Shown: in pieces, positions 11,782 to 51,503 of the stretch
Layout: every line of letters starts with the position of its first letter
Position numbering within the stretch: the stretch's first letter is position 1
NCBI GenBank assembly: GCA_000004985.1
Contig: GG738859.1
DNA length: 64,000 nucleotides
Reading direction: 5' to 3' (one strand)
From: Naegleria gruberi
Lineage: Eukaryota
The notes under the pieces: generated by a model
Database searches by the model: none
The model's input: the letters and a program-made list of their open reading frames with translations, nothing else
Told to the model about the DNA's origin: nothing
Translations under genes and position numbers: made by a program

Positions 11782-12384
11782 TTAATGTTGTTTGAAAAGC
11801 AACTTTCTAACAGCACATTGAGTTGGGCAGGCAGTACATGGACAGGACAATAAATTGGTCAAGAATTGATTTTCATTCTTTGTCTTTTCAAAATCTCTTG
11901 ATCTCTTAATTTGTCTGCTGTACATTTCCAAATGTTCTCTAATGGATTGAGTAACAGCATCAGTGTTGGTGGTGGATTTCAATGACATGGCTTGCAACAA
12001 TGGTTGACTCTTTTCTTCAATAACCTTTGAAACCATATTTCTCAATTCAACATGATGTTGAGCACATTCACTAGTTTTACAAGTCCAATCAACTGAATCA
12101 ACAATGGTGTTCAATGTTTGGATTTCATCTCTTTGGTCAATGGTAGATTGCTCAACGGATGCCAAGAAGGCACAACATGGCAAACAGGCAGTGCATGGAG
12201 GACCAGTTGTCTTGACTTTGGATGGGAGGGTAGTATTGCCATGCATGTGGTTGTACATGAGCTTGACCATTGCAGGAGCGAACAAGACGTTATCATTGCA
12301 CATTGGAGGACCACATGCAGCATTGATTTGTTGACAAGCAAGAATACAAACAACAAGACAGATCAAGGAAAGGATTCTCTTCAT
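11782..12384 (-). CDS. Secreted cysteine-rich hypothetical protein, 200 aa, with an N-terminal signal peptide.
   Basis: MKRILSLICLVVCILACQQINA looks like a signal peptide. The mature part has many Cys residues (CGPPMCNDN, PPCTACLPCCAF, CPCTACPTQC). No recognised domain. Confidence 0.4.
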   Translation of the reverse strand: MKRILSLICLVVCILACQQINAACGPPMCNDNVLFAPAMVKLMYNHMHGNTTLPSKVKTTGPPCTACLPCCAFLASVEQSTIDQRDEIQTLNTIVDSVDWTCKTSECAQHHVELRNMVSKVIEEKSQPLLQAMSLKSTTNTDAVTQSIREHLEMYSRQIKRSRDFEKTKNENQFLTNLLSCPCTACPTQCAVRKLLFKQH

Positions 12385-27041: not shown

Positions 27042-28253
27042 ATGAGTTTTGATGTTACTAAACAAACTGGTCAACCAAGAAATTCCGGCGAATGGTCCTT
27101 CTCTAATCATGCATTGAATCCAAAGGGTAACGAATTTTCTTTCCTTCCTCCCATACAAGGTTCAATTGATGAAGATTCTATTGAGTCTTCAAAGAATGGA
27201 AGTGCTGATTCGTTCCCAACGATCAATGAGCAAGCAAAAAGCAACACCAATGATCAAGGCGGAAATGGACACAGATTACCATCTATCAAAATGTTGACAG
27301 AATTACCACTTCAACAAACAACATACACTGCAAATTATGTTCCAATTAACTTGGAAGGGCAACAGTCAACAACTCCTCACATTGGTATTCCACCACCATT
27401 GAATAGTCCTTCATGTTTGAATTTAAGTGCCTGGTCCCTTAATTCCCCATCAATGAATGGAGGCATTGCTTATCCATCCAATAATACTGGACCAGATTCG
27501 TACTCAATCTTGGGTGGAGCAGGCACTTCAAGAGTTCATGGTCCTTCAAATTTGTCACCATATGCTTTCAGGCCAATTCCAACAAGTGCTGGTTTGCCAG
27601 GGTTTCCTTCCATGAATAACTCGCACAATTATGTTAGTAGTTCCACCATCTCAACCTTCAATAGCACCACTGCAAACTCTCAATTCAATTCATTTGTAGA
27701 CCAAGCACAACCTTCCAAGAGAAGATCCATTGATGGTTATGAGGCGTTCGAACCATATTCTAGTAGCTCAAGAACAAAGCGATACTCCTTCTCCTCGTAC
27801 AGTCCTCAGATTCAATCAAAAAAAACAAATTCTGATAAGAGAAGCTCTTCAGAGGAGGATGATACAATTATTCAAAGAAGAAGCAGTTTCAAAGAAATTC
27901 CAATTCAATCCATTGTCCAACACTTACATCTCTCACAACGTGATGCTGCAAAAAGTCTTGGTGTTAGTGTCAGTACTCTAAAGAGAAGATTCTACAGTGT
28001 CAGAGATCAGATTGGAATTGAAAAGTGGCCAACAATTACCACAACCACAATTCAAAGTTCTCAGCAATCCCTTTCTAATGTTTTAATCAAATATCCCATC
28101 ATCAATCCAGTCCCAACCACAACCTCAACAACATTAGAAACCTCCCAAACAAATCCTCCTCTAATATTGCAAAATGTAAAGGAAGAGGATTCGTCAAGTT
28201 CCACAAATGGAATTTCTTCCTCTGCTTCGTGTGCACCTTTGCAAAACCAATAA
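27042..28253 (+). CDS. RWP-RK domain protein, a putative transcription factor, Ser/Thr/Pro-rich.
   Basis: The block IPIQSIVQHLHLSQRDAAKSLGVSVSTLKRRFYSVRDQIGIEKWP resembles the RWP-RK motif (LKDAAKxLGVCxTxLKRxCRxxGIxRWP). The rest is low-complexity. Confidence 0.5.
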   Translation: MSFDVTKQTGQPRNSGEWSFSNHALNPKGNEFSFLPPIQGSIDEDSIESSKNGSADSFPTINEQAKSNTNDQGGNGHRLPSIKMLTELPLQQTTYTANYVPINLEGQQSTTPHIGIPPPLNSPSCLNLSAWSLNSPSMNGGIAYPSNNTGPDSYSILGGAGTSRVHGPSNLSPYAFRPIPTSAGLPGFPSMNNSHNYVSSSTISTFNSTTANSQFNSFVDQAQPSKRRSIDGYEAFEPYSSSSRTKRYSFSSYSPQIQSKKTNSDKRSSSEEDDTIIQRRSSFKEIPIQSIVQHLHLSQRDAAKSLGVSVSTLKRRFYSVRDQIGIEKWPTITTTTIQSSQQSLSNVLIKYPIINPVPTTTSTTLETSQTNPPLILQNVKEEDSSSSTNGISSSASCAPLQNQ

Positions 28254-28517: not shown

Positions 28518-31500
28518 ATGTCAGAAAATGAAGTGGACCTCGATTTCTTCAGGCGTAACTTTCAGCAGTATCAACAACCACAACAACAGCAACAAAAACA
28601 CATTGAAAGCAACACATCAAACATAATCATTACGCTCGGAGTACAAAATAATTCTCATCACGGTGATGGCAATTCAAACAGTTCCAATGAAGATGATGAA
28701 ATTATTTATGGAATTTCGAGTTGCCAGGCCTTCAAGTGGAATTTCATTATGGAGGTGATCTTTTGGTTCGTTTGTATTGCTTCTCTCGGATCACTGCTCT
28801 TATTGTGTAAATGGATTAATTGGTTAAAGTTGTATTTGACTTGTGTGAAGATTTCCACCACTTTTAAACAAGCTGATTTTTTATTGATAGAGTCGAATTG
28901 TAGTATTCATGGAATGGATGGATCATTTGGTAGATATACAGTGGTGCCTATTTGTCGTGATTTGGAACGAGAATTTAATGTGAAATTTATCAAATTTAGA
29001 ACTGTTTCTTTTGTGTATTGTGAAGAGAGGGATGGTTTCATTCCGTGTCGATTTAATATTGGAAATAATTTTAATCAACTTCATGAAAAGATTGATCAAT
29101 TTGTGGAGAATCAAAATCTCTCTAAATTTCACAAGTTACTGAATCAGATTTTTGGAAAGAATATTATTGAAACACCTGTGAAACCAATCTTCTCCTTGTT
29201 GGTTGATGAAGTTTTTCACCCATTCTACATTTTTCAAATTGTCAGTGTTGTGATTTGGTGCATGATTGATTATTGGATTTATGCTCTTGCTATTGCATTT
29301 ATTAGCACATTGAGTTGTTTGATTAATCTTCATTCTACAAGACAATCAATGGTAAAACTGAGAGAAATGACTGGAAATCAAGTTATTCAATTGAATAGAG
29401 TCAAATTATCTCAGGATCAAGCCATCTCTCAACCCAATTCAATTCACAAGTATCACATTGATAAGAGGGAACGTGTCTCGTCGAGTGAGTTGATTCCTGG
29501 TGACTTTGTAGAGATTGAAAATGGAATGAATGTTCCTTGTGATATGATTCTAATGAGCGGGCAGGTCATTGTCAATGAATCCATCATGACTGGTGAAAGT
29601 ACACCTGTTAAAAAGATGCACATTCCAAACAAGTCGAATCATTTTCATCAACATGGCGAGATTTCTAATATTTTCGAGGGACATACACTCTATGCAGGCA
29701 CTAATGTCATCATGATTAAGCATCAAGTGATTGGTATGGTTATTAATACAGGATTTCAAACTATGAAAGGAAAATTAATTATTCCAATCATTTATTCCAA
29801 GCCAAGCAATTTCCAATTATATAGAGATTCATTCAAGTATATGATTATCATGTTTTTCTTTGGATGTGCAGGGGTTGCTGGAACTTTTATCAATTTGTAC
29901 AATATTCACGTGCCAATTCCTAGAATATTTTTGGAATGTTTCGTCTTGATGACTATTGTGATTCCTCCAGCTCTTCCAATTGCAATTGCCACCACTTTGT
30001 CCTTTGCAATTTATAGATTGAGATTTTGGAATATATTTTGCATTGCGCCTCAAAGAATCAGCTTGTCAGGTATTGTGAAAAAGTTAGTTTTTGACAAGAC
30101 CAATACCTTGACTTGTGACCACCTTGAACTACATCATGTGATACAGAGTAATCATTTGGATACCAACTCAGGTGAACTGTTAGAAAATCCAAACTCACCT
30201 GTTGGTGATATAATGCATTGGGCAATGTCAACTTGCCATGAATTGACACTACTTCAAAATGGTCAATTAGTTGGTGATCCACTCGATATCAAAATATTTG
30301 AAGCCACCCCTTTTAAATTCATTGAAGATCACCCAACAAGTGGACATTCACAAGTTCAATCTGAAAATGAGGAAACTAGTTTTGAAATTCTCAAAATTTT
30401 CCCTTTCAAATCTTCACTCCAAAGAATGTCAGTCATTGTGAAACATCAAAGTGGAAAGATTTTCTGTTTTACAAAAGGATCAGGTGAAATGATCAAACAG
30501 CTATGCGATAATTCACAAAGTGTTCCATTCGATTTCTATCAAACTCTGTATAGTAATTCACATAAGGGATATAGAGTAATTGGGGTTGCTTTTAGAGAAT
30601 TATTTATTGATGATTTGGAAATGATTCAAACAATAGATAGAAATCAAGTGGAATGTGATTTAAAATTTATTGGCTTAATATGTTTGGAAAATAAGCTCAA
30701 AAAGGAAACTCCACAAGTCATCAAAAAGTTATTGAAATGCAATCTAGATGTTGTGATAGCCTCTGGAGATAATCCATTCACAGTGACCAGTGTTGCAAGA
30801 CAAATTGGATTAATGACGAGTGAAAAAATTTACCTTGGCGAATTGGATTTGTCAAGAACGAATGAAAATTGGATGAATAGTTTAGTTTGGAGAAATGTAG
30901 ATTCTGAAAAGGACATAATTACCACTGAACAATTAATTGAGGAATCACATTTATATGCCAATTTGGTAGAATTCGCCCTGACTGGACCAGTTTTCAATTA
31001 TATTTTACAACATGCCTCTGATTGCACAATCTCTATCAATAACCAATTGGAATTATCTTTCATCAAGTTTATTCTAATGAATTGTAAAATCTATAGTCGA
31101 TTCTCTCCCCAGGACAAGATGAAATTAGTGGAAATTTTACAAAACGATTTGAAATACTCGTGTCTCATGTGTGGAGATGGTCAAAATGATATCAAAGCTC
31201 TCAAACTAGCTCATGTTGGTGTTTCTCTGAGCAGTGATCAAGAGGCATCTCTTGCTGCACCGTTCACAAGTCTGAAACCTTCCATTGAGTGCGTTCTTTC
31301 AGTACTCAGAGAGGGAAGATGTGCTCTGTGGTCCTCATTCCAAGTATTCAAGTACATGTCTCTCTACTGTCTGATTCAATTCTATACTGTGGTGATTCTA
31401 TTCCAGAAGAATACGAAAATGTCTGATTTTCAATATCTGTTTGTGGACTTGTTTATTGCATTGCCAACTCTCTTGCTCATGACTAGGACCAAGTCAACGA

Positions 31501-32144
31501 ATCAGTTGAAGAGAAAAAAACCACCCACCACACTATTCTCTAAGCAAGTACTCTTGAGTTGGTTTTCTCAGATATTTCTCAGTTTTCTAACAATTTTACT
31601 GGTTTGGATTGAAATTCATTCAGGAAAGTTTAATTGGATTACTCTATTGGACCATCCGAGTGAGGATGTGACTCAGAATTATCTGAGCTATGAATCAACA
31701 ATCATGTTTTTCATGTCCACATTGTGTACAATTAATTGTTGCATCAGTTTTAGTATCAGCAAACCTTATAAGAAATCGTTGTGGAGTTGTAATATTATGT
31801 ACATTTGCTGTTTGGTTGCAATTTACTTGTACACATGTTATGTTATTCTAATTCCAGCCCAAGTGTGGAAATCCATATTTTTACTAGTGAACATGCCAAT
31901 GTTTTACAAGATTCGAATACTAATTTATGGAATGATTCATTTAATCATTAGTTATGGAATTGAGTATATTCTTGTGGCTGATTCTTTCCTCAAGATTTTG
32001 AAAAAGTTAAATCTTGTTAACATTCTCAAAGTTGTGAAGAGTTTTGGATTGGAAAATAATGTAACCATTAATGGATGGATTAAATATCTCAATTCTAGGG
32101 AGAAACCATATAGACAGTATAGAAAATTATTCAAAAGGGAATGA
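28518..32144 (+). CDS. P5B-type P-type ATPase (ATP13A2/Ypk9-like cation transporter).
   Basis: 1208 aa. TGES actuator motif (IMTGESTPV). PPALP in M4 (VIPPALPIAIATT), which is diagnostic for P5B. The phosphorylation motif reads FDKTNTLT. The hinge motif is CGDGQNDIKALKLAHVGVSL. About 10 predicted TM segments and a P5-type N-terminal membrane-dipping segment. Confidence 0.8.
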   Translation: MSENEVDLDFFRRNFQQYQQPQQQQQKHIESNTSNIIITLGVQNNSHHGDGNSNSSNEDDEIIYGISSCQAFKWNFIMEVIFWFVCIASLGSLLLLCKWINWLKLYLTCVKISTTFKQADFLLIESNCSIHGMDGSFGRYTVVPICRDLEREFNVKFIKFRTVSFVYCEERDGFIPCRFNIGNNFNQLHEKIDQFVENQNLSKFHKLLNQIFGKNIIETPVKPIFSLLVDEVFHPFYIFQIVSVVIWCMIDYWIYALAIAFISTLSCLINLHSTRQSMVKLREMTGNQVIQLNRVKLSQDQAISQPNSIHKYHIDKRERVSSSELIPGDFVEIENGMNVPCDMILMSGQVIVNESIMTGESTPVKKMHIPNKSNHFHQHGEISNIFEGHTLYAGTNVIMIKHQVIGMVINTGFQTMKGKLIIPIIYSKPSNFQLYRDSFKYMIIMFFFGCAGVAGTFINLYNIHVPIPRIFLECFVLMTIVIPPALPIAIATTLSFAIYRLRFWNIFCIAPQRISLSGIVKKLVFDKTNTLTCDHLELHHVIQSNHLDTNSGELLENPNSPVGDIMHWAMSTCHELTLLQNGQLVGDPLDIKIFEATPFKFIEDHPTSGHSQVQSENEETSFEILKIFPFKSSLQRMSVIVKHQSGKIFCFTKGSGEMIKQLCDNSQSVPFDFYQTLYSNSHKGYRVIGVAFRELFIDDLEMIQTIDRNQVECDLKFIGLICLENKLKKETPQVIKKLLKCNLDVVIASGDNPFTVTSVARQIGLMTSEKIYLGELDLSRTNENWMNSLVWRNVDSEKDIITTEQLIEESHLYANLVEFALTGPVFNYILQHASDCTISINNQLELSFIKFILMNCKIYSRFSPQDKMKLVEILQNDLKYSCLMCGDGQNDIKALKLAHVGVSLSSDQEASLAAPFTSLKPSIECVLSVLREGRCALWSSFQVFKYMSLYCLIQFYTVVILFQKNTKMSDFQYLFVDLFIALPTLLLMTRTKSTNQLKRKKPPTTLFSKQVLLSWFSQIFLSFLTILLVWIEIHSGKFNWITLLDHPSEDVTQNYLSYESTIMFFMSTLCTINCCISFSISKPYKKSLWSCNIMYICCLVAIYLYTCYVILIPAQVWKSIFLLVNMPMFYKIRILIYGMIHLIISYGIEYILVADSFLKILKKLNLVNILKVVKSFGLENNVTINGWIKYLNSREKPYRQYRKLFKRE

Positions 32145-33879: not shown

Positions 33880-34925
33880 ATTATGAAAATCTAGTTCGGA
33901 TATTTTTTTTGATATTGTTTTTCAATAGTTCAAGATTTTTCCCGCCAATATTTTAAAATCTCCAAGTCTTTAATTATCAATGTGGAGAATTAAATAATAA
34001 TTGCTTGATTACTTTTTGAATAGGGATTTGACTTGAGAAAGTAAATTATCCAAAAGTGAAGAGTTGGAAGTTGTAATTCCATTCAATTTGGTGTTATTGT
34101 TAGTTGTTGTGTTTGGGTCCTGAATTGAATAAATAATTTGTTTTCCTCTTGTTCTGTATCTCTCGTAAATTGATAATAATTTACTATCATTATTTCTCTG
34201 TTTTTAATAATATATTAATTCAGATATATTTAAATATTATTAATTCCGAATATTATTCTTTTACATACATGTAATAGAAAAGCAAGTAATCCTCCATAAT
34301 AAATAATTAAAGCAGCCATTCCCAATTTTACATTCCTCAATTTTTCAAATGATTTTAAACTCGATATCACTTGATAGACAAGATGAAGAATTGGCACTGA
34401 AATGTTATCAATAAATGTTTGAGTGAGTGATGATTGTCCCGAAAATACAACAAGATTTGTTTCCTTTTGATTTAAATTTGTTGAAACTAGATTCCGATGA
34501 TTTGTTATTTTCTCATCATGGTGCTGAAAATTGCCATCCGAATGAGCAATTTGTGATTTAATCATTTTTTAAATATTTTCCACCATCTAATAAGCACAGC
34601 ATTTTGGTATTCAAACAATAAATTGACATCTTACTACTGGTAATAGATATGTATGAGGAAACATCATCTTACAAAGAATAACACTAAGCCAACTAACTCC
34701 TCTTGGGATGTGATTGAAGAAAAACTTAATCTTCCTATTTGGAAATGTGAAAAAGTACTTGATAACAAAACAAGTGTCGGTTGTGCTCTAACAAAATGAA
34801 ATAAGCCACAACGCTGTTACTTGAAGCAACCTTCAATAAGAAACTTATCATTCGGGCATGAAAATCATCTCGTCAAGTATTGAGATAGGAAACCAAACTC
34901 ATTAAAAAAAAAAACAATCATTCGA

Positions 34926-36015
34926 ATGTATTCCAAACATTTTCTTTCATTCTGTTGTTTCTTTCTGTTGCTGCTATCTTTCTATCAACAACACCAGTTG
35001 TACTCAGTAACCAATGCTCAATTATCCTCCGTTCAATTCAATCAAGCTGTAGATGCAGCTTTAAGCAAGTTAGTTGCCGACAGTTCCTTTCAAAATTACA
35101 TCTATGATGGTATGTTGTTTGTTATCTTGAATATCATCCATACATATGAACCATGCTGAATGAATTTCTCTAACCATTTTCACAAGCCATTGCTTTCCCT
35201 GTTCCAACATGTGCAACACCAACCTCCTTTCCAACAATTAATCCCATTCCAAGTAATGTTTCAACTATCAAGATGTGTTATGATGGAGCTGGTTATATTT
35301 CTGAACCGTGGCTTTCCATTTACAAATCAGTGGTATGTTTATTTCTTGTTTCATCTCTCATAAAAATTGGAATTGTTGTGTTTAGGGAAATGGAATTGTG
35401 AAATATTTAAATAGTCAATATACAATTCAATTGACAGCATCCTTTGTGATGGTCAATACTGAGAATGGTTATTTCTCCTCAATGAAAAAGGCAGTGGATA
35501 CTGCTGCTTGCGATGTTGCAGTTGCTGACACTACCATTACAACTGAAAGGTCAACCCAAGTCAACTTTGCCAAATGTGCATATGGTTCAACTGCTAATGG
35601 CTTTTTGAGAAATGAATTGGATAATTCCACAATTATGATTTCCACCTTTTCAGATTTGAATAATCCAAATGTTACAGTTGCATTCTATGAAGGAACAATA
35701 TACGAAACTATTGCTAATCAATCACTACCTCTGGCTAAAAAAATTCCTTCAACCTATGATGAACAATTTGATTTACTAACCAAAAACAAGGTTCATGCTA
35801 TAATAGGAGATGGAATTGATTTTTTCCAATTCAAATCTAATAATTTGAAAAGCTGCTCTTCATGTTTTGTCAAGATTTTTGGAGAGAGTGCACCATTTGG
35901 AGTGTTTACTCAAATTACCACTCGTACAAGTGCAAGTGTCAGCTGCCATTTCGAATACTTTTCATTTACTGGACTAGTTTTGATAATTTTATCAACAATG
36001 TTAATGAATTTGTAA
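34926..36015 (+). CDS. Small secreted or GPI-anchored protein with a periplasmic-binding-protein type 2 / ionotropic-glutamate-receptor ligand-binding-like domain. Three exons: join(34926..35109,35187..35332,35386..36015).
   Basis: The ORF track splits this into three pieces. GTATGT donors at 35110 and 35333 and AG acceptors at 35186 and 35385 join them in frame. Signal peptide MYSKHFLSFCCFFLLLLSF. The core AACDVAVADTTITTERSTQVNFAKCAYGS resembles the SBP_bac_3 / iGluR S1 motif (DxAxAxxTITxERxxxVDFSxPY). The hydrophobic C-terminus (FTGLVLIILSTMLMNL) could be a GPI-anchor signal. Confidence 0.45.
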
Positions 36016-36169: not shown

Positions 36170-37423
36170 ATGAAATACGTTAAATTTGGTAATACTGGCT
36201 TGAAAGTTTCTCAAATTTGCTTTGGTAAGTTGATTACTCATATTAATTATAATAATAATTATTAATTATGATCAATTTGATGATGGCTTAATTTTCTCTC
36301 TCGGAATTTTCAAATGGTGATCGGAATTTGATGATCAACAACAAGGTTGTATGAGTTTTGGATCACCAAAGTGGCAACCATGGGTATTGGATGAAGCTCA
36401 ATCATTGCCAATCTTGAAGAAGGCCTGGGATTTGGGTATTAATTTCTTTGATACTGCTGATATGTACTCAAATGGTGAAAGTGAGAGAATTTTGGGTAAA
36501 TTCATCAAGGAGAATAATATCAAGAGAGAGGAAATTGTTATTGCTACCAAGGTTTTCTTCCCTATCGATAAATCTGGTGAGCAAAAGACTCTGTTTAGAA
36601 ATGGTGTGCAAAATCTCGTTCCAAATACTTATGGTTTGTCGAGAAAGCATATCATGCATGCTGTTGAAGATTCTTTGCAAAGATTGGGAACTGATTGTAT
36701 GTATTTATTAATCATGATAATGTCGAATCATAATTCTAATATAATTTGCTTTGGAATAATTTGGAATAATTTCAAAAAGATATTGATTTGTATATTATTC
36801 ACCGTTGGGACAATAATACCCCAATTGAGGAAACAATGGAAGCTCTTCATGATTTGGTCAAGTCTGGAAAGGTCAGACATATTGGTGCTTCATCTATGTG
36901 GGCATGGCAATTCGCAAAGGCACAACACGTTGCAGAAATGAAGGGCTGGACAAAGTTTGTCTCCATGCAAAATCTCTACAATTTACTCTATAGAGAGGAA
37001 GAAAGAGATATGATTCCATTGTGTAAGGATCAATTGACAACATGCACACCTTGGTCACCAATCTCACGTGGAATTCTTGCCAGAGCTCACGAATTTGCCG
37101 ACTCAACCCAAATTGAAGGATCTTCCACTAGAGCTACCACTGATCCATTTGCAAAGCAATTCGAAAAGGAATTAACAGAGGGTGATAAGGAAACTTTGAG
37201 AAGAGTCTCTGAGATTGCCAAAAAGAAGGACGTCACCCCTGCTCAAATCGCCATTGCTTGGTTGTTGACCAAGCCTTATGTTTCTGCTCCAGTGGTGGGT
37301 GTTACCAAGATTGAAAATGTAGAGTTGAATGTTGCTGCAACAGAAATTGTCTTTACTGAGGAAGAAATTAAGCATTTGGAAGGTGCTTACGTTACTAAGG
37401 CTGTTCAAGGTGCATTGCAATAA
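36170..37423 (+). CDS. Aldo-keto reductase (AKR family, aryl-alcohol dehydrogenase-like). Three exons: join(36170..36224,36346..36696,36780..37423).
   Basis: Exon 1 encodes MKYVKFGNTGLKVSQICFG. Exon 2 continues (G)CMSFGSPKWQ...LQRLGTD. Exon 3 restores the conserved -YIDLYIIHRWD- block. Donors are G|GTAAGT and T|GTATGT; acceptors are ACAAG| and AAAAAG|. Introns are 121 and 83 nt. Confidence 0.8.
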
Positions 37424-40279: not shown

Positions 40280-41680
40280 ATGATGACCACAGATTTTCTG
40301 TGTCCTGAGAATGCTTCCTCCCTCAAACCTCGTCCTCCAACCTCACCGTGTACTTCTTCTTCATCATCGGGAAGAAGACAAGCAAGTGTTCGAAATTTAC
40401 AATTTTCTTCTGTACCCTCTTCTCCCTCATCATCCAAAAGAGCTTCTCCAACCACATCATTAAACAGTTCAAAACCCTTATCATCTTCATCGAATAGTAA
40501 AAGTCCATCACTAACCATAGGAACTGCCACATTATCACCAAGAATAACAACATCATTATCTGCACAACAAGCACCTCCATCACCCTCATCAGCAGCAGCA
40601 AGAAAGATACGTCTCAATATTGATTTGAATCAAATTCAAAAACAAAATGAAACTACCATCGCAATTGGATTAAAAAGATCATCTTCTAAGAGTCATTCAT
40701 TGAACAGCTCCCCAATTAATCATCTCCTCTCACCCAATTCCATCCTTTCAAACAACTTATACTCGAGTAATAGCAATCAATGCACTCCAGCTACAATGAT
40801 AACCGTTACTTCATCCTATCGGAGCACAGTAGAGAAGGATGATTTGATGAAAATTGTACCCTACTCTCCACACATTCCCTCTCCCATAATGAGTAAGGGA
40901 TTGTTTGAGAGTGATGGATGTGAATTCTCTCCACGTGATGCTCACTGGCTGCCCAAACAAAAGAAAACCATCACTAAGGAGAAGAGTTATCAATCGTTGC
41001 CACCCCAGGTTGAGGAGAATGAATTTAATCTGATGAGTCCACGACACATTGTGGAAACTTATTCAACTACAAAGAAAAAGTTTACAGAGATTAAGAATAA
41101 CCCAATATTCGATACTGCACTATTGGAAAATAAGGCTAAAGTTGCTGAATTTAAAAGTGAAAAATTCAAAATTTTGAGAGAATTTTGTGATATGAATTCT
41201 ACATTGGATGTTTGTTATAAGGAATTGGGTTCATTTACAAGTTTGGAAAATCCACAAGATCCACTCAAAGTTGTGGTTGACAAAGCAGCTTTTGAACAAT
41301 CACCAATTCATGAACATGAGGATGCTCTTCATAAACGAAGACAACTCAAAAGAATGATGAAGAATGCCAAAAATCAAAATATTGCCAATGACTATGCAAG
41401 TGACATGGATTTGAAATCTCTCTTACTCATTTGTGAGTTGAGAGAGAAGGAAAAGAAGGAATTTCCGACACCAAGGAAATCACTTCTTAAAAGTCCAAGA
41501 ACTCCCAGAACTCCAGGAAGAAATGCCAAGTTGCCACCTCTCAAATTTTCAGAACAATACAGATTAAGCAAAATAAGACAATCTATGGAAGTAAGTGGCA
41601 CTGATTCCTCTTCTCCAATAAGTAATGGCTCTGTACAACAATCAACTGTGATGCTATCACCTTCATCTCCTAATAATTAA
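40280..41680 (+). CDS. Ser/Pro-rich hypothetical protein, 466 aa.
   Basis: Continuous ORF with an N-terminal S/P/T low-complexity region and a Lys/Glu-rich C-terminal half. No domain recognised. Confidence 0.4.
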   Translation: MMTTDFLCPENASSLKPRPPTSPCTSSSSSGRRQASVRNLQFSSVPSSPSSSKRASPTTSLNSSKPLSSSSNSKSPSLTIGTATLSPRITTSLSAQQAPPSPSSAAARKIRLNIDLNQIQKQNETTIAIGLKRSSSKSHSLNSSPINHLLSPNSILSNNLYSSNSNQCTPATMITVTSSYRSTVEKDDLMKIVPYSPHIPSPIMSKGLFESDGCEFSPRDAHWLPKQKKTITKEKSYQSLPPQVEENEFNLMSPRHIVETYSTTKKKFTEIKNNPIFDTALLENKAKVAEFKSEKFKILREFCDMNSTLDVCYKELGSFTSLENPQDPLKVVVDKAAFEQSPIHEHEDALHKRRQLKRMMKNAKNQNIANDYASDMDLKSLLLICELREKEKKEFPTPRKSLLKSPRTPRTPGRNAKLPPLKFSEQYRLSKIRQSMEVSGTDSSSPISNGSVQQSTVMLSPSSPNN

Positions 41681-41707
41681 TTTATTAGAAAGGTTAACAT
41701 GCGGTTT

Positions 41708-43784
41708 TTATTGACCAATGGATTGCCAAATACCTTCTAATTTATCTTGGTATTCTTCATAATCATTTGCATTTCCTAATTGTTGTAATAATTCGGTAAT
41801 ATCATTATTGCATAGGAATGAGTCATTGCTGTTTGTTTGCTCTATTGCATTAAATTCTTGATATGGCTGCATGGTTGTTTGATTTGAGGTTGGTATCGAA
41901 TAACTGCTATTGGTAGAAGAAGCTTCTCTATCACCATTCATGATGGAAGAATTCAAATTTACCAGAAAATCATTCAAATCTCTCCTTTTTCTCATCAATT
42001 GAGTCATTTCGCTCAAAGTATTTTTCAACACTACGAATTTGGAACTAATAATCACAAGTGAATTGAAATTTTCAATAATCATACTAGAATCATTCACTCT
42101 CAGATTGACCTTAATAAGAATTGGAAAGAAAATTATAATGACAGGAGCAGATTTCCAAAAAGTTGCCCTCGATGCCAATCCACTGGCCATTGTAGCGCAA
42201 TGTAAACCCATCTTTTCCAAGCCACACCTCACCAAAATGTCAGCCCTCAAAGAATAGAGACAGAATCGGTGGACATTCTTTTGAATATCATGTTTCTGGA
42301 ACTTGTCAGATTCAATATACTTTTCCAGAGTTTCCAATTTTCTCAATATCCCAATCAACTCTGTCTGATTATTTGATAAGTATGCAACTCTAGAATACAG
42401 CAAGTAATAAACCAAAGTGGCGGTGAAGGAAATTTCTTCACTTCCCTTAATGAGTGACATTTCACTAATTTTCCTTTCTAATTGTTCAATCTTTCGAGTA
42501 CATTTGGATGATGTGAGATAATTACTTGTCTCCTCCACTATTTTCTGCATATTTTCATCTATTTTCTCAATTTCTTCCAACTTGTTTACTCCCAATTCTG
42601 CCAAAAATTTTGAAATGGAATTTGCAAATGAAAGTGCTGAAAGAGCTTGATAAAATTTGTCATCCTCAACCTGATATGAACATATGCTCGATGACATTTC
42701 CAATGCAATCCTGTTATACATATGACTCTTTACTCTTTCACCTTCTGAACAAGCATACACTCCCATCAAACTCAAAGCACACGAAGCTTCTCTAGAAGGA
42801 TGATCGAATAGATAACTTGCCTGAGATCTAGCTCTATTGAAAAAGTCGACACAATTCTTTCGATCCTCCAATCGTTGAGCTCCCATTGCACAGACGATGT
42901 TGAGCAATAAATGGAAGCCATAAGGATCTGGTGAGTGATTAATTGGGCTCATGAGAGATGAATTGAGGCATTGATCTAACATTGGACCATCTACTAGTGA
43001 GTGGCATGTTACACAACTTGTAATGTTGAGTATGAAATGTCATTATGAATACTTACTCTAAAAATTGATTCATGAGAGTTCTTGTTTGAGTGGTGACATT
43101 AAATTGAAGTCCACTTAATGGACTTGAGTATAAAGAAGTAATGGGGAATGCTTGAGAATGATTCTCATTAAATTGATCGATAGAATTATTTGATTGTTTT
43201 TCATCTACTGCAATTTCATGATTAGTGACATTATCTGAATTTTCTAAATCATCAGATGATGACGATTTTCTCTTCTTTGGGCCTCTTTTCTGAGGTGGTA
43301 GGTAAGCACAACTAATTCCCTTTGATTTACATCTTGTGCATGAATTTGGAGCTTCACCATCGCATTTTTCTATTTTAGGAAAATGCAATAAGAGAAATTG
43401 AATATTTGTAAAGTACTTACTGTGCAGCTTGTTACAATAGACGCATGCAGATTTGTGCTTTCGTTTCTTTTCGGAAGAATTTGAACTGTGTCTAACTGTT
43501 GACAAGGTTTCGGATTCTTGTGGATGGAAAGAGGTTTCGTTTGGTAGTGTTTGGGATTCGTTAACAATTGAAAGGATATTTGATGATGTGGTTGGTGTGA
43601 AATACATGTTGGTTAACTGTTCAAAGAATGGCAAAAGTACTAATTGGAAATTATTCGAAACATTATTGTTGTGCATGACTGGTTGATTAGTTGAAGATGC
43701 TAACTGTCGATTGTTCTGTTGCCACGATGCTTGTTCATTGGATGACATTTTTTTCTTTATTAGTTTCTGATTTCGATAATACAA
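41708..43784 (-). CDS. Zn(II)2Cys6 binuclear-cluster transcription factor with a fungal-type middle homology region. Proposed three exons: complement(join(41708..43016,43058..43369,43421..43784)).
   Basis: A 51-nt GTAAGT...ATAG intron at 43370..43420 splits the zinc cluster. Spliced, it reads ACVYCNKLH-KK-CDGEAPNSCTRCKSKGISCAY, a canonical CX2CX6CX6CX2CX6C. A downstream basic stretch is RGPKKRKS. The second ORF (41708..42982) has a fungal_trans-like region (FHLLLNIVCAMGAQRLED...ALSLMGVYACSEGERVKSHMYNRIALEM). Its frame is open about 20 codons upstream of its ATG and can be joined through a putative 40-nt intron at 43017..43056 (GA|GTAAGT...ACAAG|T). That second junction is the weaker one. Confidence 0.55.
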
Positions 43785-44271
43785 CTTTCGTTTGGTTTCT
43801 TATGACCACAAGACAAACAGCTATTCTCCATTTGTAGAATCTTAATTGCCTTACGGAAAACCTTGCTTCAATTTGGCATGAAATTGAAAACTGTATCTCA
43901 ATACAAAACTCCTTTCCAGATTTTAGATTCCAGTTCTGAAATTTAATAGAATCTCAAAGAGAAAATCCTTTCCCAAACGATGACAATCTTCACTGTCTTA
44001 TTGTCTTCATTCCTTCATTCTTAGTACTTTATTCAAATATCGAATATCGTACCATCACTTGCAAAAAAACCAATCACGAAAATACATGAATGAACTTGCT
44101 CAAATTGTACTTGAGGTTACATCCCTCACCCATCGCCCTCGTCTATTTTGATTTTATATTCGATGATTAACAGCTCTTTTGTGAACAAGCAACAACTCGG
44201 TAAAAATATTCAATATTAAGAAAAAACAACAACTAGTTACCCACCCTACCTTCTTTTTGTATTATATAGAG

Positions 44272-44949
44272 ATGAATCCATATCAACAACCATACGGTTA
44301 TCCACCACAAGGAGGTATGCCACCACAAGGATATGTAAGTTTTATATTACTATATGAATTTGATAGAGTTTTTGTGATTTTTGTGATGTTTTTGTGATCC
44401 ATGGTGATCTTTTGTAAAATTGAAAAAACGTTTAAATTTATTATTTGCTGATGATCATCATATATTTATTGTACAATACAACATACATATTTATAATTAT
44501 ATTTGAAATAACGACAATTTTCATATGAAAATATTTAAATTTGTGGACAACAAATATTTTCGGATTTTGATGACACTTGATAATCACACAAATATTTAAA
44601 TATCATATTGATGATGATTTAGCCAATGCAACCAGGTATGCCAATGCAACCTGGCTATCCAATGCAACCAGGAATGCCAATGCAACCAGGTTATCCTATG
44701 CAACCAGGTATGCCTATGCAACCAATGCCAATGCAACCTGGAATGCCAATGCAACCAATGGGCCAACCTGGATATTATGCTCCACCAACTGGTTATGTTC
44801 AACCACCAGTGAGTTATAATACCACAACTAACTATGCTTATCCACCTACTCATGGTCACGGATATTATCATCATGGAAAGAAGATGAAGTTCGGTAAGAG
44901 AATGAAGTTTGGTAAGAAATTTGGTAAATTCGGAAAGAAGTGGTTCTAA
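44272..44949 (+). CDS. Pro/Gln/Met/Gly-rich repeat protein with a basic Lys/Phe/Gly C-terminal tail. Two exons: join(44272..44334,44623..44949).
   Basis: Exon 1 is MNPYQQPYGYPPQGGMPPQGY, with donor TAT|GTAAGT. After a 288-nt intron the acceptor TTTAG|CCA opens exon 2. Exon 2 encodes PMQPGMPMQPGYPMQPGMPMQPGYPMQPGMPMQPMPMQPGMPMQP..., ending KKMKFGKRMKFGKKFGKFGKKWF. The codon immediately upstream of 44623 is a stop, which fixes the acceptor. Confidence 0.5.
44623..44770 (+). repeat. Imperfect tandem repeat of about 21-27 bp (CCAATGCAACCAGGTATG-like units) encoding (MQPG[MY]P)n.
   Basis: The unit caaccagg(a/t)atgccaatg / caacc(a/t)gg(c/t)tatcc(a/t)atg appears about 6-7 times in a row. Confidence 0.6.
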
Positions 44950-45296
44950 ATTAATTCTAGATGATCTTATTTCTATAAATTATTGATTTATTGTCAATAT
45001 TGAAATAGCTCACTACTTTTTTCTAACTGAACAACAGATGGATTGGTGAATTGCTTACGATATTGGTAATTGAGAGAACCTGTTGTGAAGGTGGTTGTGC
45101 TTGAGGACCACAACATTTTGTGAGTCACCAACAAGCTTTTACATTCGATTACATTCTTGTTGGATTACTGACTTAATCTTCTTAATTACGTGTATCTAGG
45201 AGTTTCTTTCTTCAATTTCAATTTTTCACATCAACTCCGATCTTTTTTGAACAACTCAATTCACCTCGTTACAACTCCATAAAACAATAGAAAAAA

Positions 45297-45830
45297 ATGG
45301 AGGCAATGCAAATTGTTGGATTGGTAGACTCTCTCGAATTATTGGAAGCCATCAAATCAGTTCGGAATCAAGTCTTTGTTCAGGAACAAGAAATTGACTC
45401 TACTCTAGAATTTGATGCCAATGATATTCAATTTAAAGAAGGATTGGAAAATTCATCAACAACCTCTCTTTTAAACAAACTCCGCTATTATTATATTAAA
45501 TTCAATGGTGATGATGGAGAGGTGTGTGGTACATGCCGAGCAAGAAAAACCACTGATTCAACTTGGAAAATTGAAAGAGTGGCCACTTTGAAAAATCATA
45601 GAGGAAAGGGATTGGGACAGAGTTTGATTTCGTTTGTTATTGATGATTTGTCCAAGTTGGATGATTCCAGTAATAGTGAGGAAACAACTTTTTACATTCA
45701 TGCTCAATTGTCTGCTTATCCATTCTGGAGTCGAGGCAATTTCAATAATGGAAAATTTATTAAAGTTGGAGAAGATTTTGAGGAAGCTAGTATTCCACAT
45801 TGTAAAATGATCTACCATCCAAATAAGTAA
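45297..45830 (+). CDS. GNAT-family N-acetyltransferase.
   Basis: 177-aa ORF. The acetyl-CoA binding motif is in IERVATLKNHRGKGLGQSLISFVIDD (R/QxxGxG/A). The N-terminal part has a conserved-looking FVQEQEI block. Confidence 0.6.
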   Translation: MEAMQIVGLVDSLELLEAIKSVRNQVFVQEQEIDSTLEFDANDIQFKEGLENSSTTSLLNKLRYYYIKFNGDDGEVCGTCRARKTTDSTWKIERVATLKNHRGKGLGQSLISFVIDDLSKLDDSSNSEETTFYIHAQLSAYPFWSRGNFNNGKFIKVGEDFEEASIPHCKMIYHPNK

Positions 45831-46408
45831 GAGAATAAAATTGATGATCTTTTAATCTCTCATCACCCTAAAGAATCCACAGATCATCCTATTCCACAAA
45901 TCTTGCTGATAATGATGAAATACTGCACCGGAGTTAAAAGTCCTTACGATTTTTTTGCATTCATCACCAGTAACTCATTTCTCACCCTCAACTATCTTAC
46001 TAGATCGTCATCATCGAAATATCGATCCTCCTGCAATATTCATCGACTCCACTTTCACAACCAAAAAAAACATTTGAAAAAAATATCAAGAGGTGAGTTT
46101 TTGATTTTTTTGCATTTTTTTTAAATCTTGCATTTTGTGTTCGTGATGATTTTTATTATTTTATAATGATGGTGATGAATTATAATTTTGTTGTTGTTTG
46201 GGGATGATGGATGAACTGTGCATGATTGTGGGATGAAATGCAAATTTTTCCATGTAAAAAACTCTTGAAAATTAATGATTTGATATTGATGATGATGAAT
46301 TTATATTTTATCCTATGATATTGAATGTTGAACATTAACAATCTAATAACAATCTAATCTATCATTTTGATATTATCCATGTAAAGAAAGTGAAAAATAT
46401 CAAAAAAA

Positions 46409-48931: not shown

Positions 48932-49061
48932 ATAGATATTATAAAGTATATTTATTAAGTTGGTTGGTCTCACTAATTTTTCTCACACTAAATCACTAGA
49001 TGGTTGATGAAGAATAATTCATTCTCGAAGAAGATAGGTACAAAATGAATACATGTATCAT

Positions 49062-51288: not shown

Positions 51289-51503
51289 TTTGTTTTGGCT
51301 TAATAAACTTTTTACCCTCCAAATGATTCAAGTTTTTAAGTTAATAAGTGGGACGAACTTATTTGGAAAATTGTTGAATGAAGAAATTGCATTAGAAAGT
51401 CAACGAACTAAGCTTTACTTTTGGAGAATTTACAAAAATCCAAAAGTCGATTTACTAAATGTGGGTGGTTCCAAAAGGAGTTTACAGTTATTGTAATAAT
51501 TAT

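What the first reader, a model, noticed from the sequence alone, without database searches (positions are those of the whole stretch)
34926..36015. Small secreted three-exon protein resembling a bacterial solute-binding / iGluR ligand-binding domain, missed by the ORF track
Three adjacent ORF-track fragments join cleanly through two GTATGT...AG introns of 77 and 53 nt. The product is a ~315-aa protein with a signal peptide, a periplasmic-binding-protein type 2-like core (AACDVAVADTTITTERSTQVNFAKCAYGS, cf SBP_bac_3 / iGluR S1) and a hydrophobic C-terminus that could be a GPI signal. A free-standing ligand-binding clamshell lacking the channel or 7TM part is unusual in a eukaryote. It could be an extracellular amino-acid or small-molecule sensor.
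Basis: partly seen in the sequence, partly recalled or inferred. Interest (0 to 1): 0.5.

Follow-up and report, generated by a model that had tools for sequence, protein, structure and literature searches.

The report
Surface-anchored amino-acid-binding clamshell protein, Naegleria
This is a real three-exon gene of the amoeba Naegleria gruberi, apparently missing from its public protein set, that encodes a secreted and probably lipid-anchored version of the bacterial amino-acid-binding "clamshell" domain with its last two helices moved to the front; it most likely binds an amino-acid-like molecule at the cell surface.

Summary
Exons 34926-35109, 35187-35332 and 35386-36015 join through GTATGT...AG introns of 77 and 53 nt into a 319-aa protein. 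Homologues from N. fowleri, N. lovaniensis and Willaertia align across both junctions without gaps. A 98%-identical environmental strain carries its only three gene-body indels inside the two introns.

The window is N. gruberi. The product is not in a 15-billion-protein collection that holds its neighbours, so it looks unannotated.

Two additions. The domain is circularly permuted, with the canonical C-terminal helix pair at the N-terminus. Relatives carry the same ectodomain fused to a transmembrane helix and a protein kinase.

The most likely role is a GPI-anchored surface receptor or co-receptor for an amino-acid-like ligand. Ligand, anchor and signalling are untested. Stand-alone clamshells in protists have precedents (EhVFT, PfVFT1), so this is moderately interesting: a new variant of a known kind.

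The parts
34926..35109 (+). Exon 1 (codons 1-61 plus the first base of codon 62). It encodes the signal peptide and most of the N-terminal helix pair.
   Evidence: First ATG after an in-frame stop. Spliced translation. Homologues align from the signal peptide onward.
34926..35018 (+). Signal peptide, residues 1-31: a short charged start (MYSKH), a hydrophobic core (FLSFCCFFLLLLSF) and a likely cleavage after VTNA31, before Q32.
   Evidence: Kyte-Doolittle window above 1.7 at residues 3-21, and the -3/-1 rule fits at A31. The small residue at -1 is aligned in homologues ('HAN'). This is a heuristic only; SignalP was not available.
35110..35186 (+). Intron 1, 77 nt, GTATGT...AG, phase 1.
   Evidence: The 8-nt and 1-nt indels of the environmental strain L001 both fall here. 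Homologue tblastn matches stop and restart around it.
35031..35191 (+). N-terminal helix pair, residues 36-63, interrupted by intron 1. It is the relocated equivalent of the canonical C-terminal helices of SBP_bac_3 (circular permutation).
   Evidence: The model shows helices 36-51 and 53-63 with pLDDT 79-95 and no helix after the last strand. The homologous segment of relatives P0148 and P0128 hits only the C-terminal 'DGT..KWFG' helices of bacterial domains, 40 of 40 top hits. There are contiguous HMM alignments across the junctions of bacterial tandem domains.
35187..35332 (+). Exon 2 (rest of codon 62 to codon 110). It encodes conserved Cys70 and the Pro-rich linker, then strand 1 with the MCYDG motif (Cys92, Asp94).
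35333..35385 (+). Intron 2, 53 nt, GTATGT...AG, phase 0.
   Evidence: The 3-nt indel of L001 falls here. All homologue tblastn matches break at exactly 35332|35386.
35386..36015 (+). Exon 3 (codons 111-319 plus stop TAA at 36013-36015). It encodes the rest of lobe 1, all of lobe 2, the linker and the C-terminal signal.
35264..35913 (+). Core clamshell, residues 88-286, interrupted by intron 2. Two alpha/beta lobes of the type II periplasmic-binding-protein fold.
35548..35550 (+). Arg165 codon (AGG), the predicted alpha-carboxylate clamp in the motif ADTTITTER.
   Evidence: Invariant in 21 of 21 family members. It aligns with the Arg of 'TITPER' in AncCDT-1 and AncQR. Coordinates.
35809..35811 (+). 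Asp252 codon (GAT), the predicted alpha-amino group acceptor in lobe 2 (HAIIGDG).
   Evidence: At least 90% conserved. It aligns with the Asp of 'MVTDS' in AncCDT-1. Coordinates.
35929..35937 (+). Ser292-Ala293-Ser294, the candidate GPI attachment (omega) site.
   Evidence: A triplet of small residues 8-10 residues upstream of the terminal hydrophobic stretch. The rule is applied by hand; no GPI predictor was available.
35959..36012 (+). C-terminal hydrophobic tail, residues 302-319 (FSFTGLVLIILSTMLMNL). It ends the protein with no cytoplasmic residues, as a GPI-attachment signal peptide does.
   Evidence: Hydropathy. The same feature is present in 28 of 29 complete family members. In contrast, the kinase-fused relatives have a transmembrane helix followed by KRRR.

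Best explanation
The locus is an intact gene of Naegleria gruberi that is apparently unannotated. It encodes a 319-aa precursor.

Proposed pathway:
1. An N-terminal signal peptide (about residues 1-31) takes the protein into the ER. [inferred]
2. The ectodomain (about 32-288) folds into a circularly permuted type II periplasmic-binding-protein clamshell of the polar-amino-acid (SBP_bac_3) class. The helix pair that normally ends the domain sits at the N-terminus. [fold and permutation are shown computationally, not by a solved structure]
3. Six family-conserved cysteines and four N-glycosylation sequons fit an extracellular protein. [inferred]
4. The C-terminal hydrophobic peptide (302-319) is replaced by a GPI anchor at about Ser292. 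The clamshell is left on the outer face of the plasma membrane. [inferred]
5. The cleft keeps the aromatic lid (Phe140), Arg165, Gly213-Thr214 and Asp252. In bacterial amino-acid binders and glutamate-receptor ligand domains these grip the alpha-carboxylate and alpha-amino groups. The ligand is therefore most likely a free amino acid or a close analogue, and binding closes the lobes. [ligand class inferred]
6. The protein has no cytoplasmic part, so the loaded clamshell would act through a transmembrane partner as a co-receptor. Relatives in other, unidentified organisms carry the same permuted ectodomain fused to one transmembrane helix and a protein kinase, which shows that the module is used as a sensor input. 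[co-receptor role inferred]
7. The family has many paralogues with variable cleft residues, which suggests a repertoire of specificities. [inferred]

Shown here: gene structure, homology, predicted fold, permutation, residue conservation and family distribution. Not shown: anchoring, ligand class and signalling role.
For: Gene structure and identity:
- Gene model.
- Organism: exact matches of flanking ORFs to NAEGRDRAFT_79203, 79204 and 47933.
- The product is absent from the collection. No N. gruberi protein more than 48% identical was found.
- Synteny with the N. lovaniensis and N. fowleri loci that hold P0002, P0004 and P0003.

Fold:
- Pfam and NCBIfam hit only polar-amino-acid binding-protein families.
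- Profile against PDB gives E 1.6e-17.
- AlphaFold model: pLDDT 77, pTM 0.68.

Binding residues:
- Arg165 is invariant and Asp252 at least 90% conserved; Gly213 is invariant only in the 11-sequence alignment.
- They align to the TITPER Arg, the LGTT motif and the VTDS Asp of AncCDT-1.

Circular permutation:
- Model topology.
- 40 of 40 phmmer hits of the P0148/P0128 N-terminal segment land on canonical C-terminal helices. The best score is 7.3 bits, against 3.3 for the best of 30 shuffles.
- Contiguous alignments: HMM 26-289 to P0067 112-365 (E 8.5e-16) and HMM 32-251 to P0103 391-596 (E 1.7e-17).
- The query aligns directly to P0148 residues 5-268 at E 1e-17.

Surface display:
- Hydropathy and sequons.
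- Tail conservation.
- Six conserved cysteines.

Sensor use:
- P0148, P0128 and P0150 consist of the ectodomain, a transmembrane helix and a PK_Tyr_Ser-Thr kinase domain (E 1e-74 to 4e-56).

Precedents:
- EhVFT is GPI-anchored, lacks a transmembrane domain, and affects motility and phagocytosis (PMC12965686).
- Venus kinase receptors are activated by amino acids (PMC2680970).
Against: - There is no transcript, protein, localisation or binding data for this gene or any family member. Five literature searches pairing Naegleria with solute-binding, GPI or Venus-flytrap terms found no study of this family.
- The single sequence falls below Pfam's gathering score (23.5 against 26.4 bits).
- Signal peptide and GPI signal were judged by hand rules, not by SignalP, NetGPI or big-PI.
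- The Thr160 position varies across the family, so some members may not bind amino acids.
- A profile of the N-terminal helices built from Naegleria and Willaertia sequences alone does not detect bacterial C-terminal helices. For this gene the permutation therefore rests on transitive homology through P0148 and P0128 plus model topology. Model coordinates could not be inspected.
- The kinase-fused relatives come from unidentified organisms. No partner is known in Naegleria.
Confidence: 0.55

Rival explanations
1. Nutrient-capture receptor. The same surface-anchored clamshell binds an amino acid, vitamin or other small nutrient with high affinity and delivers it by endocytosis. GPI-anchored folate receptors of animals and GPI-anchored nutrient receptors of trypanosomes work this way (my own knowledge). 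No signalling is involved.
For: The architecture is the same as in the best explanation. The nearest relatives are transport binding proteins, including domains fused to ABC permeases. Amoebae take up nutrients by pinocytosis and phagocytosis (general knowledge). No signalling partner has been identified.
Against: The only domain fusions found for this permuted ectodomain are to protein kinases, not to transporters. A large paralogous family with variable cleft residues looks more like a receptor repertoire. Nothing was tested directly.
Confidence: 0.2
2. Not GPI-anchored. The C-terminal hydrophobic stretch stays as a tail-less single-pass membrane anchor, or the protein is released as a soluble secreted binding protein like PfVFT1.
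For: Without a predictor or experiment the tail (302-319) is compatible with a transmembrane helix. PfVFT1 is a secreted clamshell with no anchor that associates with membranes (PMC13199436).
Against: 28 of 29 complete family members end within 0-5 residues of the hydrophobic stretch and lack the basic stop-transfer residues seen in the kinase-fused relatives (KRRR). Most have a cluster of small residues 8-12 residues upstream. That is the classical GPI-signal layout, and it was shown to work for EhVFT (PMC12965686).
Confidence: 0.15
3. An enzyme that evolved from the binding-protein fold, like cyclohexadienyl dehydratase or the clamshell-like module of the lytic transglycosylase MltF, rather than a binder.
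For: The best solved matches include ancestral and modern cyclohexadienyl dehydratases (5JOS, 3KBR, 8CQ4) and MltF.
Against: The very best match, AncCDT-1, is the non-catalytic amino-acid-binding ancestor. The conserved residues are the ligand-gripping Arg and Asp. NCBIfam hits are transport binding proteins, with a single weak MltF hit. No catalytic residues were identified.
Confidence: 0.05
4. A dead or silent gene copy: similar to real family members but not expressed, which would explain its absence from the reference annotation.
For: The product is absent from the public protein set. A neighbouring paralogue in N. lovaniensis is broken by a 1-nt frameshift, so copies do decay.
Against: All three exons are open. 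Splice sites are canonical. All conserved cysteines and cleft residues are intact. In the environmental strain the indels inside the gene lie only in the introns, and the frame is kept. It is the only copy at the syntenic position in N. gruberi.
Confidence: 0.05

Closest known systems
Bacterial polar-amino-acid ABC-transporter binding proteins (Pfam PF00497 SBP_bac_3; e.g. GlnH, LAO/HisJ, ArtJ, cystine-binding protein; reconstructed AncCDT-1, PDB 5T0W, and AncQR, PDB 4ZV1)
   Different: The host is eukaryotic. Identity is only 15-22%. The domain is circularly permuted, with the C-terminal helix pair at the N-terminus. It has six conserved cysteines, N-glycosylation sequons, introns and a GPI-type tail. 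No ABC permease partner is expected. The single sequence scores below the Pfam and NCBIfam cut-offs.
Tandem substrate-binding domains fused to the permease in GlnPQ-type importers (PDB 6H30, 4ZEF, 4LA9; metagenomic proteins P0054, P0061, P0067, P0103)
   Same: These are the best non-eukaryotic sequence matches. The region 'C-terminal helices of domain n + linker + domain n+1' is colinear with the permuted eukaryotic domain. A tandem arrangement of this kind could give rise to the permutation.
   Different: They are bacterial membrane transporters with 2-5 canonical domains. There is no evidence that this lineage was the donor, and multi-domain scoring inflates their rank.
EhVFT of Entamoeba histolytica (PLoS Pathog 2026, PMC12965686)
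   Same: The design is the same: signal peptide, a free-standing Venus-flytrap clamshell, no transmembrane domain, and a C-terminal GPI signal that sets plasma-membrane localisation. It is an amoeba protein, and knock-down reduces motility and phagocytosis.
   Different: EhVFT is a type I clamshell (ANF_receptor / PBP1, class C GPCR-like), so it is not the same family. It is a single gene rather than a multigene family, and no permutation is described.
PfVFT1 of Plasmodium falciparum (PDB 5JKQ; Parker et al. 2017, PMC5563136, cited in PMC13199436)
   Different: Identity is 8%. No anchor was identified, and it is reported as probably not GPI-anchored. It is not detected by sequence searches.
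Ionotropic glutamate receptor ligand-binding domain (S1S2; Pfam PF10613, PF00060), including bacterial GluR0
   Different: There is no pore or M1-M4 segments, and the domain is not split by a channel. Similarity is weaker than to bacterial binding proteins.
Venus kinase receptors of invertebrates (PMC2680970, PMC3703292)
   Same: They are an analogue of the kinase-fused relatives P0148, P0128 and P0150: clamshell, one transmembrane helix and a kinase. They are activated by amino acids.
   Different: VKRs use a type I clamshell and an insulin-receptor-like tyrosine kinase. The gene in the window has no kinase.
Naegleria and Willaertia 'Solute-binding protein family 3/N-terminal domain-containing' and hypothetical proteins (e.g. 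N. fowleri FDP41_000021, N. lovaniensis C9374_005960 and C9374_005968, N. gruberi D2VI43, W. magna ABK040_010430-010448)
   Same: True family members. Identity is 25-48% over the full length, E 1e-68 to 1e-125. They share the N-terminal helices, the six cysteines, Arg165, Asp252 and the tail. The locus is syntenic in N. lovaniensis and N. fowleri.
   Different: The orthologues in N. fowleri and N. lovaniensis are intronless. This copy has two introns and is missing from the N. gruberi protein set. None has been characterised.

Membership tests
SBP_bac_3 (PF00497), type II periplasmic-binding-protein fold, polar-amino-acid class | Pfam score at or above the gathering threshold (26.4 bits) | tested here: not met
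   23.5 bits, E 5.1e-5, for this protein. 12 of 21 family members match at E<=0.01, best 9.8e-8. Precomputed PF00497 hits exist on the N. fowleri and N. lovaniensis homologues.
SBP_bac_3 (PF00497), type II periplasmic-binding-protein fold, polar-amino-acid class | Significant profile similarity to solved members | tested here: met
   Family profile A2 against PDB: AncCDT-1 E 1.6e-17, AncQR 7e-14, a Glu-binding protein 2.5e-12, and 36 chains at E<=1e-3. Nearly all are binding proteins of this fold or enzymes derived from them.
SBP_bac_3 (PF00497), type II periplasmic-binding-protein fold, polar-amino-acid class | Two alpha/beta lobes joined by a two-strand hinge | tested here: met
SBP_bac_3 (PF00497), type II periplasmic-binding-protein fold, polar-amino-acid class | Conserved Arg (alpha-carboxylate) and Asp/Glu (alpha-amino) in the cleft | tested here: met
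   Arg165 is invariant in 21 of 21 and Asp252 at least 90% conserved. They align to the TITPER Arg and VTDS Asp of AncCDT-1. The roles of these residues come from established knowledge of GlnBP, LAOBP and GluA2, not from a test here.
SBP_bac_3 (PF00497), type II periplasmic-binding-protein fold, polar-amino-acid class | Canonical order of elements, ending in the two C-terminal helices (DGT...KWFG) | tested here: not met
   There is no helix after the last strand (271-286), and two helices (36-63) come before strand 1. The homologous N-terminal segment of relatives maps to the canonical C-terminal helices. This is a circular permutation.
SBP_bac_3 (PF00497), type II periplasmic-binding-protein fold, polar-amino-acid class | Works with an ABC (or TRAP/chemoreceptor) membrane partner encoded nearby | tested here: not met
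   No permease or ABC gene lies next to it. The neighbours are a P5-type ATPase, hypothetical proteins and an aldo-keto reductase. Only 64 kb was visible.
Ionotropic glutamate receptor | Ligand domain split by a pore-forming transmembrane module (Lig_chan PF00060, M1-M4) | tested here: not met
   There is no PF00060 hit. The only hydrophobic segments are the signal peptide and the C-terminal tail.
Ionotropic glutamate receptor | Lig_chan-Glu_bd (PF10613) at or above the gathering score of 30 bits | tested here: not met
   16.7 bits, E 0.008.
GPI-anchored surface protein | Cleavable N-terminal signal peptide | tested here: inconclusive
   The hydrophobic core at 5-20 and a -3/-1 site at A31 fit. 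No SignalP was available.
GPI-anchored surface protein | C-terminal hydrophobic stretch that ends the protein, with no cytoplasmic tail | tested here: met
   Residues 302-319 form the stretch, with 0 residues after it. The same holds in 28 of 29 complete family members.
GPI-anchored surface protein | Small residues at omega, omega+1 and omega+2, about 8-12 residues upstream of the tail | tested here: met
   S292-A293-S294. The rule was applied by hand; no NetGPI or big-PI.
GPI-anchored surface protein | Biochemical proof (PI-PLC release, lipid labelling) and GPI transamidase in the organism | not testable with these tools
   There is only a literature remark that GPI-anchored proteins are evident in the Naegleria pangenome (PMC9928731).
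Heterolobosean permuted clamshell family (Naegleria/Willaertia) | Full-length homology including the N-terminal helix pair | tested here: met
   E 7e-68 to 5e-83, 82-89% coverage, 45-48% identity to Naegleria members. The alignment is gap-free from residue ~35.
Heterolobosean permuted clamshell family (Naegleria/Willaertia) | Six conserved cysteines (70, 92, 152, 174, 267, 270) | tested here: met
   All six are present and invariant or at least 90% conserved.
Heterolobosean permuted clamshell family (Naegleria/Willaertia) | Conserved genomic position | tested here: met
   The window shares catalase, PNP_UDP_1 and three hypothetical genes with the N. lovaniensis locus, and a fourth with the N. 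fowleri locus. The order is rearranged.

The most novel reading that the evidence does not exclude
Heterolobosean amoebae took a bacterial tandem amino-acid-binding module and circularly permuted it, freeing the C-terminus next to the hinge. They then expanded it into a two-tier chemosensory system. In that system, GPI-anchored clamshells such as this gene act as ligand-presenting co-receptors for single-pass receptor kinases that carry the same ectodomain. This would be a protist counterpart of GFR-alpha/RET or plant CEBiP/CERK1, used to sense amino acids from bacterial prey or host tissue.
Probability: 0.12. Interest if true: 0.7.

Novelty: new variant of a known kind. Interest (0 to 1): 0.45.

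Why it matters
- It adds a missing gene to the N. gruberi reference.
- It defines an uncharacterised multigene family of predicted surface proteins. The family is shared with the brain-eating amoeba N. fowleri (FDP41_000021, FDP41_012477), where surface receptors for host-derived amino acids could matter for chemotaxis and feeding.
- It gives a second, independent example, after Entamoeba EhVFT, of an amoeba tethering a bacterial-type ligand clamshell to its surface by a lipid anchor. This one uses the type II fold.
- The natural circular permutation, and the existence of kinase-fused versions, are testable structural and evolutionary points. They show how eukaryotes rewire bacterial binding proteins into receptors.
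- Nothing here is paradigm-changing. The fold, the ligand logic and the anchoring strategy are all known.

Tried and rejected
- Paralogues in the window: tblastn with the product and four homologues found none.
- iGluR fragment or receptor: rejected. There is no channel module, and only a weak PF10613 hit.
- Permutation test using only Naegleria and Willaertia N-terminal helices as a profile against bacterial domains: no signal above shuffled controls. The signal appeared only through the less diverged relatives P0148 and P0128.
- AFDB fold search: the library was not available.
- Third homologue search, with the P0148 ectodomain, to name its organism: no hits. P0148 has no contig on record. 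P0128 and P0150 come from an unnamed SRA run and a metagenome.
- Literature: searches for Naegleria with solute-binding protein, extracellular solute-binding, GPI transamidase or Venus flytrap found nothing on this family. Searches for SBP_bac_3 with receptor kinase, and for natural circular permutation of binding proteins, found nothing relevant. The AncCDT paper is not held.
- Exact look-up of the N. gruberi paralogue P0005 found no contig.
- Model coordinates are not exposed, so helix packing and disulfide pairing could not be measured.
Full report
**1. What is in the sequence**

The region is AT-rich (35% G+C). It holds three adjacent + strand ORF fragments.

- Joining 34926-35109, 35187-35332 and 35386-36015 removes two introns that both start with GTATGT and end with AG (77 and 53 nt). 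The result is a 960-nt CDS for a 319-aa protein ending at TAA 36013-36015.
- Neither intron length is a multiple of three. Read-through of either intron meets a stop.

Four independent lines show the model is not a chance construction.

1. tblastn matches of four homologous proteins end and restart at the proposed exon borders, exactly so at 35332|35386.
2. The spliced product aligns with those proteins across both junctions without gaps...FQNYIYD|AIAFPVPTC... and ...IYKSV|GNGIVKYL....
3. A 1.1-kb metagenomic contig from a closely related strain (L001, 98% identical) differs inside the gene by three indels of 8, 1 and 3 nt. All three lie in the two proposed introns. The exons carry only substitutions.
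4. The next gene downstream is an aldo-keto reductase. It has an 83-nt GTATGT...AG intron (36697-36779), and removing it restores the family motif GTDYIDLYIIHRWD. This intron type is therefore used locally.

No transcript data were available.

**2. Whose gene it is**

- Three flanking ORFs are exact matches to Naegleria gruberi proteins NAEGRDRAFT_47933, 79203 (a P5-type cation ATPase) and 79204, on a 530-kb scaffold.
- The spliced 319-aa product is not in the same 15-billion-sequence collection.
- Neither the word-indexed search nor the exhaustive representative search returned an N. gruberi protein more than 48% identical.
- The only near-identical entry is the 205-aa exon-3 ORF of the metagenomic contig.

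The gene therefore appears to be missing from the reference annotation. This rests on negative searches.

The locus is syntenic with the N. lovaniensis and N. fowleri loci that hold homologues P0002, P0004 and P0003. Catalase, PNP_UDP_1 and three hypothetical genes of the N. lovaniensis locus, and one hypothetical gene of the N. fowleri locus, all have matches in the window in rearranged order. This is therefore the positional orthologue. Those orthologues are intronless. There is no second copy in the 64-kb window.

**3. The family**

- All named relatives come from Naegleria (gruberi, fowleri, lovaniensis) and Willaertia magna. The rest are unnamed metagenome or SRA contigs.
- There are many paralogues per genome: at least eight in N. 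lovaniensis, and a cluster ABK040_010430-010448 on one W. magna contig.
- Only 237 of 1.84 billion representatives match the profile at E<=1e-3. This is a small, divergent clade, not the general bacterial family.

Members share these features:
- a signal peptide;
- an N-terminal helix pair (F-x-Q-A-[IV]-D-A-A...);
- six conserved cysteines (70, 92, 152, 174, 267, 270);
- Arg165 and Asp252;
- a hydrophobic C-terminus.

**4. Fold**

| Test | Result |
|---|---|
| Pfam SBP_bac_3, single sequence | E 5e-5, 23.5 bits (cut-off 26.4) |
| Pfam Lig_chan-Glu_bd, single sequence | E 0.008 |
| Pfam SBP_bac_3 across the family | 12 of 21 members match |
| NCBIfam | only Lys/Arg/Orn, cystine, Gln and Arg binding-protein models, far below cut-offs |
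| Family profile against PDB | AncCDT-1 E 1.6e-17, AncQR 7e-14; 36 chains in all, nearly all amino-acid binders or enzymes derived from them |
| AlphaFold2 model (11-sequence alignment) | pLDDT 77, pTM 0.68 |
| Foldseek against PDB | AncCDT-1 E 2e-14; also ArgBP, GlnBP, cysteine-binding protein, AvGluR1 ligand domain |

The type II clamshell assignment is secure at superfamily level. The protein is not an iGluR: there is no channel module and no internal hydrophobic segment.

**5. Ligand site**

HMM alignments place three conserved elements on AncCDT-1:
- Arg165 (invariant) on the Arg of 'TITPER';
- Gly213-Thr214 on 'LGTT';
- Asp252 on the Asp of 'VTDS'.

From established structural work on GlnBP, LAOBP/HisJ and GluA2 (my knowledge, not tested here), these are the alpha-carboxylate clamp, the helix N-terminus that also binds the carboxylate, and the alpha-amino acceptor.

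The residues between the strand and the Arg (ADTTITTER against ASTNWDSER, SAVIYTQAR and others) vary among paralogues, as specificity positions would. The ligand class is therefore probably alpha-amino acids or close analogues. This is inference.

**6. Circular permutation (new here)**

- A profile of the N-terminal helices from Naegleria and Willaertia sequences alone finds nothing in bacterial domains.
- Less diverged relatives (P0148, P0128) carry at the same N-terminal position the sequence LNAAIDDMWSDGDIDAIYSEWF. This is the hallmark of the canonical C-terminal helices.
- All 40 best phmmer hits of these segments in seven bacterial multi-domain proteins fall in register on the 'DGT...KWFG' helix pair. 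The best score is 7.3 bits, against at most 3.3 in 30 shuffles.
- An HMM from a joint alignment aligns contiguously to 'C-terminal helices of domain n + linker + domain n+1' in two bacterial tandem proteins: HMM 26-289 to P0067 112-365 (E 8.5e-16) and HMM 32-251 to P0103 391-596 (E 1.7e-17).
- The N. gruberi protein itself aligns to P0148 residues 5-268 at E 1e-17.

The domain is therefore a circular permutant. Its layout is what truncating a tandem duplication at both ends would give.

In class B binding domains the C-terminal helices tune the open/closed equilibrium (PMC8694067). Moving them leaves the chain end next to the hinge, where the family attaches its membrane tether. I offer that only as a thought.

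**7. Topology in the cell**

- The N-terminus has the layout of a signal peptide, with a -3/-1 site at Ala31.
- There are four N-x-S/T sequons and six conserved cysteines.
- The C-terminus is 18 hydrophobic residues that end the protein. Ser-Ala-Ser lies 8-10 residues upstream.
- 28 of 29 complete family members end the same way, with 0-5 residues after the hydrophobic stretch.
- The kinase-fused relatives instead have a transmembrane helix followed by KRRR.

This is the classical GPI-signal layout. It was validated experimentally for the analogous Entamoeba protein EhVFT (PMC12965686). No predictor or experiment was available here.

**8. Function**

- The protein has no cytoplasmic part.
- Three relatives (P0148, P0128, P0150) join the same ectodomain to one transmembrane helix and a PK_Tyr_Ser-Thr kinase (E 1e-74 to 4e-56). 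The module therefore serves as a sensor input somewhere. The source organisms are unknown; the contigs are AT-rich.
- Animal Venus kinase receptors (type I clamshell plus kinase) are activated by amino acids (PMC2680970).
- EhVFT, a GPI-anchored type I clamshell, affects motility and phagocytosis (PMC12965686).

I therefore favour a GPI-anchored surface receptor or co-receptor for an amino-acid-like ligand (confidence about 0.55 for the whole statement). The sub-claims differ in strength:

| Sub-claim | Confidence |
|---|---|
| Gene model and fold | about 0.95 |
| Circular permutation | about 0.8 |
| GPI anchoring | about 0.7 |
| Amino-acid ligand | about 0.5 |
| Signalling role | about 0.35 |

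Rivals are a nutrient-capture receptor for endocytic uptake, a non-GPI (transmembrane or soluble) form, an enzyme derived from the fold, and a silent copy.

**9. Novelty and verdict**

- The fold, the ligand logic and the idea of a free-standing clamshell in protists are all known (EhVFT, PfVFT1).
- Sister genes are already in databases under an automatic 'solute-binding protein family 3' label.
- New here: this unannotated N. gruberi member, the recognition that the heterolobosean family is a circularly permuted, Cys-rich variant with a GPI-type tail, and the kinase-fused relatives.
- I found no paper on any of these points in the library.

I rate it a new variant of a known kind, with interest 0.45.

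Noticed in passing
window 34117-34565 (- strand): A small conserved gene lies just upstream of the target and runs divergently from it. It matches a 189-aa hypothetical protein of N. lovaniensis in two pieces (42% and 68% identity), which suggests an intron. It has no Pfam domain.
   Followed up: partly
window 36170-37423 (+ strand): An aldo-keto reductase gene starts 155 nt downstream of the target. It is split by introns, one of them an 83-nt GTATGT...AG intron at 36697-36779 whose removal restores GTDYIDLYIIHRWD.
   Followed up: partly
L002 11375-12411 (N. lovaniensis PYSW02000026.1): A third family copy lies next to C9374_005960. It is annotated as two separate genes (149 and 186 aa) because of a 1-nt frameshift near 11815 (CCT-TGG where the sister copy P0004 reads PLV). 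It is either a pseudogene or an assembly error.
   Followed up: partly
window 40847-53816 compared with L002 and L003: Synteny with the N. lovaniensis and N. fowleri loci is conserved but rearranged. Matches are catalase (49103-50919, -), PNP_UDP_1 (46409-48928, +, 64% identity), an 879-aa hypothetical (52173-53816, -) and a 479-aa hypothetical (40847-41500).
   Followed up: partly
P0148, P0128 (L005 1550-3553), P0150 (L006 1431-3263): These are receptor kinases whose ectodomain is the permuted clamshell: signal peptide, ectodomain, one transmembrane helix and a Tyr/Ser-Thr kinase. The organisms are unidentified. L005 also holds a second kinase gene fragment upstream (574-1262), so such genes may sit in tandem.
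   Followed up: partly
P0012 (N. gruberi NAEGRDRAFT_68554, 462 aa) and P0027 (W. magna ABK040_000065, 557 aa): These look like merged gene models. P0012 holds two family domains in tandem, the first lacking its N-terminus. P0027 joins about 250 residues of ABC-transporter-like sequence to a family domain.
   Followed up: no
P0100 (574 aa, origin unknown): Two permuted clamshell domains in tandem are followed by a GPI-type hydrophobic tail. The permuted unit has therefore itself been duplicated in some organism.
   Followed up: no
window 27042-28253 (+) and 28518-32144 (+): The upstream genes are an RWP-RK domain protein (NAEGRDRAFT_47933) and a P5-type cation ATPase (NAEGRDRAFT_79203). Both are single long ORFs.
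   Followed up: no
window 34926-36015 compared with L002 10001-11017 and L003 10001-10942: The N. gruberi gene has two introns. Its positional orthologues in N. lovaniensis and N. fowleri are intronless, so introns were gained or lost within the genus.
   Followed up: no
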